Below the pieces are notes generated by a model, which had not been told where the DNA came from, searched no databases, and saw only the letters and a program-made list of their open reading frames with translations. DNA of 64,000 nucleotides from Eledone cirrhosa. Lineage: Eukaryota. Below, in pieces: positions 46,926 to 64,000 of this stretch. Position numbers and translations under genes: made by a program. How positions within the stretch are numbered: position 1 is the stretch's first letter; the number at the start of each line of letters is the position of its first letter. The stretch is from the NCBI GenBank assembly GCA_964016885.1, contig OZ024748.1, positions 8,184,001-8,248,000 of the forward strand, read 5' to 3'.

Positions 46926-47003
46926 TTGCAGTGGGAGGGTGTGGGGGCATATTGTCTATATGCTATGACAGTTACATAGATAAAACACCCATGCAACATG
47001 TAT

Positions 47004-49856
47004 TCATCATCATCATCATCATTTTACGTCAGCTTTTCCTTGCTTGCAAGGGTGGGACGGGTCTTATTCAACACAGCATCTCTCCACTTGTCACGGTCCT
47101 TCGTCATATCCACCATGAGCTTCAGCGATCTGAGGTCTGTTCTCACCACCTCCGCCCATGTTTTTCGTGGTCTACCTCTACCACGTCTTCCTTCAACTGG
47201 CATTTCCTGGCACTTCTTCACCCATCGGTCATCCTCCATGCGCATCACATGTCCATACCACCTCAGTCTCCTCTCCTGTACACTACATTCTATCCCTCTC
47301 AGACACAGTTTCTCTCTCAACACATTCATGCTGGGTCGTTCACAACATTGACACTGCATATCCAACGGAGCATGCTTGCCTCATTTCTCTCCAGCCGTCG
47401 CATATCCTCTGCAGTTGCTGCCCATGTCTCACTACCATGCAGCATCGCGCTCCTCACACAGGCATCATATAACTGGCCTTTCGTACGCGGGGAGAAACCC
47501 TTCTTCATCAGCAGAGGAAGCAGCTCCCTAAACTTCTTCCAACCATCCTTATTCTAGATACTATGGCCTCGGAACACCCCCCTCCCATGCTAATCTGATC
47601 TCCTAGGTACCGGAAGCTATCCACCACTTCTATAGCACCCGCCTGCATTTGAAAAATGTGTCTATCAATGCGACTTTTACTATCTAATTTCCCTGTACAT
47701 CTACTGCATACATATTTCTCCCTACCTGTCAGTTTACCTGCTATCCCGCTACATCTCTTGTGTACCCAGGATCTGCATTGTGTGCATTTTATAGAATTTA
47801 TGCCAGTTCCTTTTCTGCATATTGAACATCGCCATTTCCCTGATGGAATCAGAGTTTTGTCTTCTTTTCTACTCATCAACACTTTTGTCTTAGCTAGGTT
47901 CACTCTCAGTCCTCTTGCTTCCAACTGCTGTTTCCATAGCCAGAATTTATTCTCTAGCTCCTCTACTGATTCTGCTATAAGAACCAGATCGTCAGCATAG
48001 AGAAGTTCCCATGGAAAGCCAGTCTTAAACTCCTCTGTTATGGCTTGGAGGACTATAATGAACAAGAGCGGGCTGAAGACCGAACCTTGATGTACTCCTA
48101 CCTGTATCTGGAACTCCTCACTAAACTCCATTCCTACCCTGACTTTACTGACAGTACCTCTGTACAAAGTTTGCACTGTCCTCACAAGCCGTTCCTCAAC
48201 ACCTAGTTTCCTTAGGGACCACCAGATGACAGATTGGGGTACCCTATCAAAGGCCTTCTCTGGGTCAACAAAGGCTAAGTATAGTGGCTTATTTTTCTCT
48301 AAGAACCTCTCTTGCAATTGTCTCACCAAGAAGAGGGCATCTGTTGTACTCTTCCCAGGCACAAAACCAAACTGTATCTCATCTAGTTTGACCCTTTCTC
48401 TAATTAGTTGTGCTAATATCCTTTCTGCCACTTTCATAACCTGATCCATCAGTTTTATACCCCCTATAATTGCTCCTCTCCAGAGCATCCCCTTTACCTT
48501 TGTAGCAATTTATGAGAATACTGCTGCACCAGTCTTTGGGTATGATACCACCATATATAGCCTGATTGATGATGCGTGCAACCAGTTTAGTGCCTACGTC
48601 CCCTGATGCCTTCAGCATCTCAGCAACTATTCCCGATGGTCCAGCAGCCTTACCATTTTTCATTTCTTTAATTGCCTCTTGGACCCTATATTCGTCAATC
48701 TCAATAGCTGGTCCCTCTGTTGGATCTACTGAAGGTAATTTCTCTCTCTCTAATTCGTTCTCCACATTCATCAGTGTCTCATAATGACATTTCCAGGCCT
48801 CCTTTTTCTGATCATTCGTGACATTAAGTACACCGACATCATTCCGGACACATTTATCTCCAACAACATCCTGATTTGCATTGACACATTGCCTTGCAAT
48901 GTGGAACACCGCACGCCTCTGATCTTCCCATCGCAGAACATTGGCAAACCTCCTACTCTCAGCCTCCCTGCATGCTAAGTACACCTGACGTCTAGCTTCT
49001 CTCTTAGAGGCTGTATATTCTTCCCTACTCCCACCCTTTTTCCAAGCCTTCCATGCTAGTCTTTTGTCTCTAATGGCCTTATCTACTGTGCTGTTCCACC
49101 ACCAGGTCACTCTGTCTGGTTGGAGCTCTGCTCCAGCCACAAGTTTCATCAGTAGCCTGCAGTAAGTTGTCACGTAAGAAATTCCAGTTATTATCTATGT
49201 CATACGTCTCTAAACCGTCTTCTTTTTCGTCATACACATCTTGAAGGGCTTTCCTAAATTTGTATTTTAGTGAAAGCTCTTTTAGCTTCCAGACCTTTCT
49301 TCTCCACACTTTCCTGTATGTCTCATTCCATCTCTTGCTTACTGAGATATCACTAATGACTAACCTATGCTGTGGGGTACATTCTTCCCCAGGGTATGCC
49401 TTGGTATTAGACACTATCTGCCTGTCCCGCTGCCTAACTAGTAAGAAGTCAATCTGGCTTATGTGCTCGCCAGATTTGTAGGTTATTAGGTGGTTGGCAG
49501 GTTTCTGGAAGTTTGTGTTGCAAATAGTCAGTGTACTTGCATCACAAAATTCAAGAAGTCTCAATCCTTCATTTCTTGAGCCGTAACCACGCCCACCATG
49601 TACCCCAGTGTAACCATCCTGGAGCTGTCCAACATGACCATTGAAGTCCCCTGCTAGCATAACGATGTCTCCGTCCTCTGTCATTGCGGTTGTTTGTAAA
49701 AGTTGTTCGTAAAAGCAGTCTTTCTCATCTTTGCCTAGGCCTGCTTGGGGAGCATAGGCAGAGATGATTGTCAGTAGTCTCCTGCCTACAATTAATCTAA
49801 GCTTTAATTATTCAATTACTAACTCGAACTACCTCTATTGTCTTATTGATCCATCT
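47004..49856 (-). mobile_element. 5'-truncated, frameshifted RTE-type LINE (APE endonuclease, reverse transcriptase, Cys-rich finger) in PRRC1 intron 6
   Basis: GDFNGHVG, SQIDFLLV, QHRLV (APE); QFGFVPGKSTTDA, GVHQGSVFSP, LYADD (RT); RLRWYGHVMRM; (TGA)n tail; reading frame split across several ORFs. Confidence 0.95.
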
Positions 49857-50382: not shown

Positions 50383-50870
50383 TTAACCCTTTAGCATTTA
50401 AACTGGCTGTAACCGGCAACTCATCAAGGTGTTGTTCTAAAAATAAATAACCTCAATATTTCATAGATTCGATATTATGTGAGGTAAAGCCTTTACCATG
50501 AAAATACAATAGTATATATAGAGTAATGTAAATGTTATGTGAGATATTACGTGAGATAAAGCCTTTACCATGAAAATACAATAGTATATATAGAGTAATG
50601 TAAATGTTATGTGAGATATTACGTGAGGTAAAGCCTTTACCATGAAAATACAATAGTAAATATAGAGTAATGTAAATGTTATGTGAGGTAAAGCCTTTAC
50701 CATGAAAATACAATAGTAAATATAGAGTAATGTAAATGTTATGTGAGGTAAAGCCTTTACTGTGAAAATACAATAGTAAATATAGAGTAATGTAAATGTT
50801 ATGTGAGGTAAAGCCTTTACTGTGAAAATACAATAGTAAATATAGAGTAATGTAAATGATAAAAGGTTAA
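50383..50870. mobile_element. TTAA MITE whose 3' segment is amplified as a 60-bp tandem array (50475-50860, ~6 units)
   Basis: TTAACCCTTTAGCATTTA left end, AAAAGGTTAA right end; lines 50641-50821 repeat with a 60-nt period. Confidence 0.85.
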
Positions 50871-50959
50871 TATTCACTTTATAATGTTGATACAATTAAA
50901 TATTGTCTGATTCTAAATAAATGGTAGAGTGATGTTATTTTGTTTCTATATTTCTTTAG

Positions 50960-51249: not shown

Positions 51250-51565
51250 ATGGTTCGAGATGAGTTGTTTACATCTTCAAGATCCTGCCCATAATATCAC
51301 TGTAACAACATATTCTCAGCCAACCCCAGTTCCAACACCATATGTATTGACCGCTCAAGACCGAACACCCTCGGATTACCCATTGCGCTGGTCAGGCCTT
51401 GCTGTAACAATTGGACAAGTAGTAGAAGAGGCCCAACCTCATATTCGCCGCACGAATTGGCAGCTAGCTTTAGCTGGTGTCAGTCGTTACCAGAGTTTAA
51501 GTTTAGCTGCCCAAGTATTGGCCTACCTTTATAAACAACAGTTTCCCACATCATATATTTCTTGA
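51250..51565 (+). CDS. PRRC1: PRRC1 coding exon 9 ([12 protein letters not shown]...[14 protein letters not shown]...)
   Basis: TP.DY.LRWSGL.VT.G signature; TGA at 51563-51565; total CDS 1158 nt (385 aa); AATAAA at ~52134. Confidence 0.92.
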
Positions 51566-51667: not shown

Positions 51668-53043
51668 TCATATATATATATACACACACATCATATATAT
51701 ATATATATATACACACATATATATTTATATATACACATATATATGTATATATACACATATATATGTATATGGTTGTGGGGAAAATCACAGAGGTAAAGAT
51801 GTTGATGTTCAATATTTCATTTCTTAATAATTTTAACACGTGTTCCAATACAGCATAATGTTTTTGGCCTATGAAACCTGAATTGTTATACAATTGATTA
51901 CTTCATACTGCCGGGGAATATTGTTATTGCATCTCATCAGAGAAAATATAATTATTATCTGTGTGGGCAAGAAAATGATATACATATACATACATACATA
52001 TATATGTATATATGTGTGTATGTTAAAGGTAAACAGAAATATATATATATATTAGAATTTATTAAAGAACTCTAAATATTACAACCCCCATCTCTCTATT
52101 TTGAAATTTTGAAAATGCAATTGTTTGTATTTGAATAAAATAAAACTTTGTAACTGACTGGTGATAAAATATTCCAAACTTGAAGCAACAAATAACTAAT
52201 AATATTTAAAACAAATACAAAATATTCCTAAAATATTTCCTGGTTTATTAAACTGTCAAAGTCAGCTATACTGACATTTGAAACATATCTTTCATTCCTG
52301 TGATTTGTTTTCAAAACAATTCATTGTGTTTATCTTAGTGAAAATTATTGTGTACAGTGCTCAGGTGCATTACAACTCATCAAAGGTGCTTGTATAGTAC
52401 ATAGAATAATGTACAAATGTCAGGAAAGTGAACAGTGTATGAGTCATGATAGACACACACACGTTTATTTTTCTACATTTAACAAAACAACACAGTTTTC
52501 TGTTTAGTCTTACAGACTGCATTTAATCTTAATTCTTTTATATTAACTTTTCACTTGTATTTGATATTTAAGCTGTTAAATGTTCACTAGGATATTTAAT
52601 GTCATACACAGTAGTTGATATGACTCTCTCTTCCTCTCTCTATATGTGTGTGTTTGTGCATAGAACAATGAAAAAAACCCCAGAAGTCAGAGGTAGGTAG
52701 TTAACTAATTAACTTCCTAACTCTGAGTTCTGTCTTTTTTTTTATTGTTCTATGTACAAACACATATATATAAATGACTGTAACCTGAACAGGTCTTCTT
52801 TAAGAAAACTTTAAGCAGTGATCACCTACAACAAAAACTACTGGTCACACTGCCTAATCTTGCTGCAACAATCTTTCCAAGGACACATTAAGTTCTAACA
52901 TTATCAGCCCCACCACAACCAGGTGGAATACGGTATATATATATATATATATATGTAGGAGGTGAGTTTTATTGTAGTACAATAAAGCAATGCAGATATC
53001 AGATAAGAAGCACTCTACAGTTTGTAGTACTGGAGTATAAATA

Positions 53044-53351
53044 ATATAAGATCAAAAGATGGTTAAAAGAGTTCCATGTATTTTATTATGCGCATTTCAA
53101 AAACAAATATCATCATGTAATAACATTTGGAGACATGATATGAAGGTTAAAACACACTTGTGAATAGTGCAGTTTTAAATCAACATATGTTGATTTAAAA
53201 CTGCACTATTCACAAGTGTGTTTCAACCTTCATATCATGTCTCTCTCTTTTATCTGACGAAAACGCAAATGTTATTGCATGATGATATTTGTTTTTGAAA
53301 TGCGCATAATAAAATACATGGAATTCTTTTAACCATCTTTTGATCTTATAT
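53044..53351. repeat. ~300-bp loopless palindrome (centre CATATG ~53187) in a (TA)n-flanked Penelope-like element
   Basis: Arms are reverse complements apart from a ~20-nt segment present only in the right arm and a few mismatches. Confidence 0.9.
53248..53314 (+). ncRNA. Minimal type-I hammerhead ribozyme motif
   Basis: UUUUAU-CUGACGA-16-bp stem II-GAAA-U gcgc A-UA^AUAAAA: 6-bp stem I, palindromic stem III. Confidence 0.7.
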
Positions 53352-53932
53352 ATATATATATATATTTATATATACTAGTGAAGGCGTCTGGCTGAGTGGT
53401 TAGAGAATTGGATTCACAATCTTGAGGTTATGAGTTTGATTCCTGGACCGGGCGATGCGTTATGTCCTTGAGCAAGACTCTATTTCACGTTGCTCCTTCT
53501 ACCTGGAGTTGCGACCGATAGATAGTACTAGCAACTGAAAGACAAAGTCGATCGATCCTTTTATATATATACAAGCATTTAAAGATAAATTTCACTGCTA
53601 AAGCAGGGGTTAACCCTGCAGGTGCATGACAAGTTTCATATTATTCATCATGGTATCCTCTCTGAGGCAATATTTTGTAAAAGTTACACACCCTTCTTAT
53701 TCTTTTAGTTGTCTCTTATGACATTCAGTGATATGTTGTACTTATTCTAAACTAGATATACACTGTCAATAATATGGAAATATCCTGCAAATAACAGAAG
53801 ACATATTTTCCTGATGTTGTTTCAGCTGTGATTCCTTTGTTTTATTTTGGTTATTACACTTCAATGTTTTGGAATTGAAAACATTTTATACAATTATTTC
53901 ATATGTACATTTTATATTTAACTTTTTCATTT

Positions 53933-55924: not shown

Positions 55925-56560
55925 CCCCAGTCAACACTGTAAACTGGTTGTTTTTGGTGCCACAAGGAGCGCCAAGTCCAGTGTAAGGTGGTTGTGTAGG
56001 TGTCACGACAAAAAGCACCCAGTCCACACTGTAGAGTGGTCATGAAGGTGTCACAACAAAAGGCACCCAGCCCACACTGTAAAGTGGTTATGTAGGTGTC
56101 ACGACAAAAAGCACCCAGTCCACACTGTAGAGTGGTCATGAAGGTGTCACAACAATAGGCACCCAGCCCACACTGTAAAGTGGTTGTGTAGGTGTCACGA
56201 CAAAAAACATCCAGTCCACACTGTAGAGTGGTCGTGAAGTGTCACGACAAAAGGCACCCAGCCCACACTGTAAAGTGGTTGTGTAGGTGTCACGACAAAA
56301 AACATCCAGTCCACACTGTAAAGTGGTCGTGAAGTGTCACGACAAAAGGCACCCAGCCCACACTGTAAAGTGGTTGTGTTGGTGTCACGACAAAAAGCAC
56401 CCAGTCCACACTGTAAAGTGGTCGTGAAGTGTCACGACAAAAGGCACCCAGCCTACACTGTAAAGTGGTTGTGTTGGTGTCACGACAAAAAGCACCCAGT
56501 CCACACTGTAAAGTGGTTGTGTAGGTGTCATGACAAAAGGCACCCAGTACTCACTATAAA
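55925..56560. repeat. 46-48-bp minisatellite (~13 units, alternating A/B variants) inside a SINE that continues to ~56712
   Basis: CCCAGTCCACACTGTAGAGTGGTC.. alternates with CCCAGCCCACACTGTAAAGTGGTT.. Confidence 0.9.
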
Positions 56561-57451
56561 TGAGGTTGGCATTAAGAAGGGCATCCAGCCGTAGAAACCA
56601 AGCCAAAATCAGTTGTTTAAGCAAGATATGGTCATCCAACCCAGCTTGATTCACAACAGGACAGATCGTCTAACCCATGCTAGCATTGAAAATGGGCGTT
56701 AAACGGTGATGACGGTTGTTAATATTTAGCAGCATTAAATGTTTATAGTATAATACTTCATTTACTGGTTCCAATCATTAGACTGCAGGTATGCTAGGGC
56801 ACCACCTTCGTTTTCTAAGTATTAATAATAGTTGTTATAATTCATGACATTCATTTGATTCGGATCCTCCTGTATAAACACCCAATTAAATTAAAAGATT
56901 GTTGTACTTGTACTGTTTATAGGTCGGGATATCCCATTATAAGGTTTTATTGACCTCTGAGTCAAATATCTGAGATCTAGTTATTGTAATTAGAGTATAA
57001 TTACCAGTCCAGAGAGAAAAAGTAAAAAAAAATCATGCATAACTAAAATTCGATGACTTTAACAGTCAAAGGGAAATAAATCTTGAAGGCCTATATGAAT
57101 TATCTCCCATTGATTGTTATTCGAAAAGTTCTACAACGAAAACATGTCTCCATTTGGGCGCTCTGCTGGTTAAAAATACCTTAAAAAATAATAAATAAAT
57201 GAATAAAATCAGACCAAGAAACACCCAAAATATTCGCCCATATAATATTCACAACTCAATAAGATATTGCTAGTGAAAAAGAACGAAGAAAACGTAAATT
57301 TCGTCTAAAATGTTATAATAACTCGTAGTTGTTTGGGCTTTCTCCTCGGCTGGTCAATATTTTATTCGCAGTTGTATAAATAACATTACAAATGCGTAAA
57401 TCACATTATAAATTGCTCGCAATTCTTTCAGAAGAACATTACAAATATAAT

Positions 57452-58861: not shown

Positions 58862-59876
58862 TTCCCAGTAGATGCTATGAAATGGTTGGCATTAGGAAGG
58901 GCATCTAGCTAAAGATACAATGCTCCCAGTACATGTAAAGTGGTTGGTGTTAGGAAGGACATCCAGCCATAGAAGCCATGCTCCCAGTACATGCTGTAAA
59001 GTGGTTGGCATTAGGAAGGGCATCTGGCCATAGAAACTATATTCCCTGCACATGCTGGAAAGTGGTTGGTGTTAGGAAGGGCATCTGGCCATAGAAACCA
59101 TGCTCCCAGTACATGCTGGAAAGTGGTTAGCATTAGGAAGGACATCTGGCCATAGAAACCATGCTTCCAGTACATGCTGTGAAGTGGTTGGCATTAGGAA
59201 GGGCATCTGGCCATAGAAACCATGCTTCCAGTACATGCTGTGAAGTGGTTGGCATTAGGAAGGGCATCTGGCCATAGAAACCATGCTCCCAGTACATGCT
59301 GTGAAGTGGTTGGCATTAGGAAGGACATCTGGCCATAGAAACCATGCTCCCAGTACATGCTGTGAAGTGGTTAGCATTAGGAAGGACATCTGGCCATAGA
59401 AACCATGCTCCCAGTACATGCTGTGAAGTGGTTGGCATTAGGAAGGGCATCTGGCCATAGAAACCATGCTCCCAGTACATGCTGGAAAGTGGTTGGCATT
59501 AGGAAGGACATCCAGCCATAGAAACTATACTCCTTGTACATGCTGGAAAGTGGTTGGTGTTAGGAAGGGCATCTGGCCATAGAAACCATGCTCCCAGTAC
59601 ATGCTGGAAAGTGGTTGGCATTAGGAAGGACATCCAGCCATAGAAACTATACTCCTTGTACATGCTGTGAAGTGGTTAGCATTAGGAAGGGCATCTGGCC
59701 ATAGAAACCATGCTTCCAGTACATGCTGTGAAGTGGTTGGCATTAGGAAGGGCATCTGGCCATAGAAACCATGCTCCCAGTACATGCTGTGAAGTGGTTA
59801 GCATCAGGAAGGGCATCCAGCCATAGAAACTATACTCCTTGTACATGCTGGAAAGTGGTTGGTGTTAGGAAGGGCA
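58862..59876. repeat. 61-bp minisatellite (~16.5 units) derived from a SINE segment, in PSMD3 intron 1
   Basis: Unit TGCTCCCAGTACATGCTGTGAAGTGGTTGGCATTAGGAAGGGCATCTGGCCATAGAAACCA. Confidence 0.95.
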
Positions 59877-63639: not shown

Positions 63640-64000
63640 TGATAGAACTAAGGTTAGTTTCAGGTGGTTTGGTATCAAATGTGTTAATGACAACTATATA
63701 TATATGATAGAACCAAGGTTAGTCTCAGGTGGTTTGGTATCAAATGTGTTAATGACAACTATATATATATGATAGAACCAAGGTTGGTTAGTCGCAGGTG
63801 GTTTGGTATCAAATGTGTTAATGACAACTATATATATATGATAGAACCAAGGTTAGTCGCAGGTGGTTTGGTATCAAATGTGTTAATGACAACTATATAT
63901 ATATGATAGAACCAAGGTTAGTCGCAGGTGGTTTGGTATCAAATGTGTTAATGACAACTATATATATATGATAGAACCAAGGTTAGTCTCAGGTGGTTTG
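63640..64000. repeat. 65-bp minisatellite (at least 5.5 units, truncated by window end)
   Basis: Unit GATAGAACCAAGGTTAGTCTCAGGTGGTTTGGTATCAAATGTGTTAATGACAACTATATATATAT. Confidence 0.9.

What the first reader, a model, noticed from the sequence alone, without database searches (positions are those of the whole stretch)
53044..53351. Complete-looking hammerhead ribozyme inside a 300-bp palindrome downstream of PRRC1; the mirror arm lacks the catalytic strand
Seen: the right arm has stem I UUUUAU/AUAAAA, CUGACGA (53254), a 16-bp stem II, GAAA (53297), palindromic stem III AUGCGCAU and a predicted cut after A53308, overlapping AATAAA. The left arm is its reverse complement but lacks ~53245-53264, the segment holding CUGACGA, so only the + strand (PRRC1 sense) could be active. 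It lies ~1.1 kb past the first PRRC1 poly(A) signal. Inference: read-through RNA could either self-cleave (aiding termination or 3'-end formation) or fold into a ~140-bp dsRNA that masks the ribozyme and attracts ADAR or Dicer, a possible structure- or editing-dependent switch. Origin is most likely an inverted Penelope-like terminal repeat.
Basis: partly seen in the sequence, partly recalled or inferred. Interest (0 to 1): 0.75.

Follow-up and report, generated by a model that had tools for sequence, protein, structure and literature searches.

The report
Inverted Penelope stub carrying standard hammerhead
This mirror-image stretch is one of thousands of short leftovers of a young Penelope-type jumping gene, carrying that element's usual predicted self-cutting RNA motif, and the missing piece in one arm is a one-off deletion that is likely accidental rather than a switch for the nearby gene.

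Summary
The motif, palindrome and deletion are real. The 67-nt hammerhead occurs 584 times letter for letter in this genome, and a 28-nt piece of the element's end 7,015 times. It is the pseudo-LTR ribozyme of a young Hydra-clade Penelope-like retrotransposon, whose RT + GIY-YIG parent I found. The insertion is larger than reported (52955-~53351): two pLTR stubs joined head-to-head in (TA)n, with an 89-nt tail on one arm. That is the family's usual form: at least 28 of 49 sampled insertions are inverted, 24 of 28 with the tail on one arm. The 22-nt deletion junction is unique to this locus, and deletions of 10 nt or more hit 3 of 119 other arms. Nothing supports co-option by PRRC1. Family copies suggest a fixed RNA start at 53185, conserved folding of stem II, and reverse transcription through an uncut ribozyme. 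Earlier scan notes report the same architecture on other DNA. Ordinary locus; modest family-level value.

The parts
52934..52954 (.). (TA)n target microsatellite, left flank
52955..53043 (-). 89-nt PLE 'tail' (5' UTR piece that lies between pLTR and ORF in full-length copies), on the left arm only
53044..53186 (-). Left arm: 5'-truncated pLTR stub with a private 22-nt deletion (junction near 53129/53130) that removes the 5' strand of stem I and CUGACGA
53184..53189 (.). Shared CATATG at the head-to-head junction; A53185 is the family's recurrent 5' end (inferred RNA start)
   Evidence: (table 5)
53187..53351 (+). Right arm: 5'-truncated pLTR stub, short (tail-less) 3' end running into (TA)n
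53248..53314 (+). Type I hammerhead motif with long stem II and palindromic stem III; predicted cut after A53308; identical to 583 other genomic copies
53347..53375 (.). (TA)n target microsatellite, right flank (boundary with the arm's own ATAT end is ambiguous)
51251..51565 (+). Context: last coding exon of PRRC1

Best explanation
The feature is a 0.4-kb head-to-head insertion of two short pseudo-LTR stubs of a young, multi-thousand-copy Hydra-clade Penelope-like retrotransposon in a (TA)n tract, carrying the element's own predicted hammerhead, with a private and likely neutral 22-nt deletion in the left arm. Shown: family membership, parent ORF, copy number, architecture, uniqueness of the deletion. 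Inferred mechanism: the element's RNA starts at A53185; its GIY-YIG endonuclease nicks both strands of (TA)n; reverse transcription starts internally at two sites 89 nt apart (tail end and short end); both cDNAs run through the folded but uncut hammerhead to the RNA's 5' end and are joined head-to-head at the CATATG microhomology. The deletion came later. Any read-through RNA would most likely form the ~140-bp hairpin and not cleave. The isolated motif is predicted to need a partner copy or the element's protein to cut.
For: Copy number: 584 exact 67-mers, control 0; 7,015 exact 28-mers; all 40 scored of 841 candidates 97-100% identical over 165 nt. Parent: RT (FDI, YRDD) plus C-terminal GIY-YIG-type ORF of about 800 aa, with the same pLTR on both sides 3.6-4.0 kb apart in 4 of 6 fetched long copies. 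Architecture: 28 of 49 distinct insertions have an inverted partner (lower bound); tail on exactly one arm in 24 of 28, neither in 4, both in 0; TA run of 12 nt or more within 150 nt of the end in 54 of 60 arms. Fixed 5' end at 53181-53187 in 14 of 30 arms picked by the hammerhead and 7 of 30 picked by the 3' end; 12 of the 15 joints shown in contigs of two DNA-like runs (one sample) involve 53185 or 53187. Deletion junction: 1 match in the genome; deletions of 10 nt or more in 3 of 119 other near-full arms; 11 head-to-head pairs with both hammerheads exact among the first 100 of 584 listed. Fold conserved at family level: all 8 common variants in the motif (minor allele in 9 or more of 64 arms) keep pairs and core, rough P=0.004. 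No peak of 5' ends at the predicted cut: about 52 per nt before, about 40 after removing the 7 of 30 indel cases, against 36-37 in flanking windows; about 113 per nt at the 3' base of stem II and 72 inside it. Literature: two internal RT start sites define the tail, both strands are cut and extended, uncut RNA is the dominant substrate, the HHR is protein-assisted (PMC11167929); inverted pLTR with one-sided tail (PMC3846280; PMC8557442); metazoan PLE hammerheads inactive as monomers and weak as dimers (PMC4209133).
Against: No RNA data were available, so the RNA start, read-through and cleavage are unmeasured. The 5'-end hotspot coincides with a palindromic hexamer, which could itself favour fold-back; against that, many arms ending there are joined to partners that end elsewhere. 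The end-density comparison uses approximate pass probabilities and only five windows, and junctions favour AT microhomology. The 8 compatible variants are lineage-linked (15 haplotypes), partly at CpG, so the P value is optimistic. No tree was built for clade placement.
Confidence: 0.9

Rival explanations
1. Co-opted regulatory switch: PRRC1 read-through RNA either self-cleaves after A53308 or folds into dsRNA that masks the ribozyme, with ADAR or Dicer setting the balance; the deletion was kept because it leaves one active strand.
For: The intact motif is on the PRRC1 sense strand, 1.1 kb past an AATAAA. It has no private change within 53248-53314. The deletion leaves the 22 nt with CUGACGA looped out of the hairpin.
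Against: Orientation is a coin toss. With 4 changes in 159 nt, none in 67 nt is unremarkable. The full palindrome sequesters stems I, II and III. Even alone, the hammerhead fold (-4.3 kcal/mol) loses to a misfold (-11.1), and such motifs are reported inactive as monomers (PMC4209133). The partner needed for the stem III dimer is the arm that lost its core. With more than 7,000 arms, some will lie behind genes and some will carry such deletions.
Confidence: 0.03
2. The palindrome arises by fold-back self-priming of one nucleic-acid strand at CATATG (or from an antisense template, as proposed for rotifer Penelope), not from two cDNAs ending at the RNA start.
For: Perfect palindrome with a shared self-complementary hexamer here and in L007, L100, L109/110. 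Other palindromic words such as the stem III octamer are also centres. Self-priming is proposed in PMC3846280 (passage).
Against: Most inverted pairs have arms ending at different places with filler bases between them, and the tail is on one arm only in 24 of 28; a plain fold-back copy would give identical arms.
Confidence: 0.15
3. The palindrome is itself a mobile unit (MITE-like or retrozyme-like) copied whole.
For: Short palindromic copies with similar centres recur.
Against: Junction sequences and arm lengths differ from locus to locus, the tail switches sides, and the deleted form is single-copy. No tandem monomer array at this locus.
Confidence: 0.03

Closest known systems
Hydra-clade Penelope-like elements, including Hydra-1_Obim of Octopus bimaculoides (Craig et al. 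2021, PMC8557442; passages, section 11 and supplement rows seen)
   Same: Single ORF with RT and C-terminal GIY-YIG-type endonuclease, DKT, CxCX5C linker, CxxC and CxH around E and N, hammerhead near the end, (TA)n targets. The N-terminal and RT sequence lines up by eye with the Hydra-1_Obim row of the supplement.
   Different: RWK reads RWI; unit 3.6-4.0 kb with a ~1 kb 3' UTR and an N-rich linker insert against <3 kb; the hammerhead differs from that listed for Hydra-1_Obim (16-position stem II against 7 bp); clear pLTRs are present. A different family of the clade.
Inverted pLTR plus one-sided tail of EN+ PLE insertions (PMC3846280 passages; PMC8557442 Fig. 2 legend; PMC11167929 parts 1-2 of 4)
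   Same: Head-to-head 5'-truncated pLTRs, palindromic junction, tail on one end only, AT-rich target.
   Different: The tail is 89 nt instead of 30-40 nt and lies upstream of the ORF start; the insertion consists of pLTR stubs only.
Minimal/atypical type I hammerheads of metazoan PLEs (Cervera and de la Pena 2014, PMC4209133; parts 1-2 of 4 read)
   Same: Type I topology, enlarged helix II, short palindromic helix III suited to a dimer, found dispersed and also as close opposite-strand pairs.
   Different: Helix II is longer (16 positions, four G-U) and closes with A-U (G-U in 9 of 64 arms) instead of the conserved G10.1-C11.1.
Non-LTR retrozymes (bioRxiv 10.64898/2026.07.22.740005, part 1 of 5 read; PMC7229834 seen as search listing only)
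   Same: Non-coding, type I hammerhead, PLE-derived.
   Different: No tandem monomer array; this is a truncated insertion of an autonomous family.

Membership tests
Hydra-clade EN+ Penelope-like element | Single ORF with RT and C-terminal GIY-YIG endonuclease | tested here: met
   FDI at 262, YRDD at 357, YFGST at 695 and RLYNH at 706 in one 784-aa frame (that copy is broken after the EN core); EN end intact in other copies. Pfam gave no hit, so the assignment is by motifs.
Hydra-clade EN+ Penelope-like element | DKG modified to DKT; RWK motif near the N-terminus | tested here: met
   DKT at 123; RLRWI at 35, a variant of RWK (definition).
Hydra-clade EN+ Penelope-like element | CxCX5C linker; CxxC and CxH around conserved E and N; no CCHH | tested here: met
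   CNCPVKNKC, CNLC..E..N..CLH in most EN copies; absence of CCHH judged by eye.
Hydra-clade EN+ Penelope-like element | Insertion into (TA)n and hammerhead in pLTR | tested here: met
Hydra-clade EN+ Penelope-like element | RT phylogeny groups with Hydra families | not tested
   Reference sequences were visible only as supplement text; compared by eye, no tree.
Hydra-clade EN+ Penelope-like element | Short (<3 kb) unit | tested here: not met
   pLTR-to-pLTR spacing 3,617-4,020 nt; the paper says 'generally' short, so this is not a strict criterion.
Type I hammerhead ribozyme | Core CUGANGA, GAAA, NUH around three helices | tested here: met
   core positions 61-64 of 64 identical, only N7 commonly variable.
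Type I hammerhead ribozyme | G10.1-C11.1 closing pair of helix II | tested here: not met
   A-U here, G-U in 9 of 64 arms.
Type I hammerhead ribozyme | Match to Rfam hammerhead models | tested here: not met
   No hammerhead family among 22 matches at E<=10.
Type I hammerhead ribozyme | Self-cleavage | not testable with these tools
   Indirect only: no peak of copy 5' ends at 53309.
Non-LTR retrozyme | Tandem monomers each with a hammerhead | tested here: not met
   One intact motif, inverted arrangement.

The most novel reading that the evidence does not exclude
This copy has been co-opted at the 3' end of PRRC1: read-through RNA is cut at the hammerhead only when A-to-I editing or co-transcriptional folding opens the hairpin and a sister copy or the Hydra protein supplies the missing half, making a transposon-derived, editing-gated terminator.
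Probability: 0.03. Interest if true: 0.7.

Novelty: new member of a known kind. Interest (0 to 1): 0.18.

Why it matters
The locus itself is ordinary: one insertion among thousands. The family is mildly useful. It is a young, high-copy Hydra-clade PLE whose stubs record a likely RNA start (53185), two likely RT start sites 89 nt apart, and passage of RT through a folded, uncut hammerhead. That extends to a second PLE clade, from genome copies alone, what PMC11167929 showed in vitro for a Poseidon element, and names exact coordinates for a test. If the switch reading were true it would be a rare case of a PLE ribozyme recruited for host 3'-end control, but nothing here points to it.

Tried and rejected
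Rfam scan: only miRNA-hairpin matches below gathering scores, no hammerhead. Pfam on the parent ORF pieces and PDB sequence search on one: nothing useful. ESM Atlas on the PRRC1 exon: no usable hit. Expression: no RNA holder listed; the two guessed-RNA contig sets covered only a different repeat at 52335-52455, which is no evidence either way. DNA contigs covered the unique flanks but no listed piece bridges the insertion, so presence/absence polymorphism is untested. In vivo cleavage footprint: two copies (L020, L093) ending at or near 53309 suggested a hotspot; genome-wide counts showed none above neighbouring windows, so rejected. ADAR footprint in this copy: its private changes are T>C, C>T, A>C, C>T on the right arm and G>A on the left, no A>G skew, so rejected for this locus. 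Deleted palindrome as a subfamily: 1 match. Sequence look-up in earlier findings was blank. Paper searches: 'octopus, Penelope, hammerhead' and 'PRRC1, octopus' listed nothing on this locus or on a PRRC1 ribozyme; listings only, and the library lacks most subscription journals. One search used wrong coordinates and was not used.

Full report
Observation. The palindrome has 98% complementary arms and no spacer (z = -34). The left arm lacks 22 nt equivalent to 53244-53265. The upstream gene is PRRC1 (stop at 51565), and the downstream gene on the same strand is proteasome subunit PSMD3/RPN3. The first AATAAA after the PRRC1 stop is at 52134; ATTAAA occurs at 52061 and 52247. Rfam's hammerhead models do not match.

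It is a repeat. The right arm matched 841 candidates in the own genome; the 40 scored were 97-100% identical. The 67-nt hammerhead occurs 584 times exactly (309 + 275; reversed control 0) and a 28-nt piece of the 3' end 7,015 times. Following long copies upstream led through about 1 kb of 3' UTR to a GIY-YIG-type domain and an RT. One copy holds a 784-aa frame from the start methionine with RLRWI, DKT, FDI, YRDD and YFGST; others show the CxCX5C linker and CxxC/CxH end. In 4 of 6 long copies fetched, the same pLTR stands on both sides of the ORF, 3,617-4,020 nt apart. These motifs and the (TA)n targets match the definition of the Hydra clade (PMC8557442 section 11). The supplement lists an octopus member, Hydra-1_Obim, whose protein lines up by eye but whose hammerhead differs. 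The nearest named PRRC1 relatives are cephalopod, so the host is probably an octopod; this was not tested further.

Anatomy of this insertion. The left arm continues to 52955 with 89 nt that in full-length copies lie between the upstream pLTR and the ORF start. This is the PLE 'tail'. The unit sits between TA runs at 52934-52954 and 53347-53375, so no target duplication can be read. I sampled 60 arms without regard to their 5' end (first 30 of 584 hammerhead matches, first 30 of 7,015 3'-end matches) and dropped 11 as second arms or repeats of an insertion already counted, leaving 49 insertions. 28 of 49 have an inverted partner (a lower bound); the tail is on exactly one arm in 24 of 28, on neither in 4, on both in none. 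Inverted pLTRs with a one-sided tail are the described form of EN+ PLE insertions (PMC3846280 passages; PMC8557442).

Fixed 5' end. 14 of 30 and 7 of 30 arms in the two samples begin at 53181-53187, and 12 of the 15 joints shown from contigs of two runs of one sample involve 53185 or 53187 (70 more not shown). Many such arms are joined to partners that end elsewhere, so the site is not only a fold-back point. In the parent the base is the A of a TCA, a plausible initiator (recalled knowledge, inference). I read it as the RNA start. With the two 3' ends (short end, tail end) this fits the in vitro result for the anole Poseidon element: two internal RT start sites define the tail, and both target strands are cut and extended (PMC11167929 parts 1-2). 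The window copy is the case where both cDNAs reached the start and met at CATATG.

Is the ribozyme real? At family level, likely yes as a fold. Among 64 distinct arms picked by ORF or 3'-end sequence, core positions are nearly invariant and all 8 common variants fall at N7, the loop or wobble-compatible stem II positions. Only 35 of 67 positions would tolerate a transition, giving a rough P of 0.004, optimistic because the variants are lineage-linked. Stem II folds better on the + strand (-9.4 against -5.1 kcal/mol). The A/G variants opposite U could also be A-to-I edits fixed by reverse transcription, a lead taken from an earlier scan note and not resolved here. Against easy activity: helix II closes with A-U, and the monomer hammerhead fold (-4.3) loses to a misfold (-11.1), while two copies pair through the stem III palindrome. 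Metazoan PLE hammerheads were inactive as monomers and weak as dimers (PMC4209133 parts 1-2), and the anole one needed the element's protein.

Does it cut during transposition? I counted arms whose match to the family stops within short windows, using exclusion patterns: 132 (53284-88), 207 (53292-96), 53 (53300-03), 123 (53306-09, the cut site) and 54 (53320-23). After correcting for pattern pass rate and width these are about 72, 113, 36, 52 and 37 per nt. Of 30 loci checked, 7 at the cut site and 2 at 53292-96 were internal indels, not ends; the other three windows were not checked this way. So there is no clear peak at the cut, and a roughly threefold rise where RT would first meet stem II. 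This fits a folded but uncut template, as reported in vitro. It is weak evidence: five windows, approximate correction, microhomology bias.

The deletion and the switch idea. The deletion junction occurs once in the genome. Deletions of 10 nt or more occur in 3 of 119 other near-full arms, and 11 head-to-head pairs with both hammerheads exact are among the first 100 matches listed, so two intact, mutually masking motifs are a common state. The right arm has 4 private substitutions in 159 nt, as expected of a recent neutral copy, and the two arms show no A>G skew. In the full palindrome the pairs of stems I and II have predicted probability 0.0. No RNA run was available, so read-through is untested. 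Nothing found singles this copy out from the thousands of others.

Earlier findings. The scan has reported the same architecture several times, in this genome and others. These are unchecked AI notes. My Hydra, tail and RNA-start readings were noted before I looked (notes); the notes led me to PMC3846280 and to the editing check.

Verdict. A real feature, correctly described, and explained as an ordinary inverted stub insertion of a new family in a known PLE clade. Interest 0.18.

Noticed in passing
window 53379-53535: A tRNA-like short interspersed repeat directly after the right TA run; very high contig depth in DNA-like runs. SINE label is by resemblance, recalled.
   Followed up: no
window 52641-52772: An older imperfect inverted repeat (64-nt arms, 84% complementary, 4-nt spacer), between the PRRC1 poly(A)-like signal and the PLE stub; another potential dsRNA.
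   Followed up: no
window 52335-52460: Another high-copy short repeat; contig joints from its right end back to its left end (52451 to ~52340) suggest tandem or circular units.
   Followed up: no
window ~47000-49800 (minus strand): A broken LINE-like RT/endonuclease element inside a PRRC1 intron, seen by eye.
   Followed up: no
window 50412-50915, 55931-56572, ~58870-59870, ~63640-64000: Tandem arrays with units of about 60, 48, 45 and 52 nt.
   Followed up: no
L008 ~480-1100; L016 ~530-580: Hammerheads of other families (CUGAUGA...GAAA with short stem II), one in a similar head-to-head TA-flanked insertion next to a copy of this family.
   Followed up: no
L031 3003-3392 (-): GIY-YIG-type C-terminal fragment of a second, divergent Hydra-like family.
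   Followed up: no
family copies L059, L128, L135, L142, L182: Short stuttered duplications just around the predicted cut site and stem III, perhaps RT slippage at the folded ribozyme.
   Followed up: partly
family stem II, window 53261-53271: Four A/G polymorphisms all opposite U; could be A-to-I edits fixed in master copies or selection for wobble-compatible changes.
   Followed up: partly
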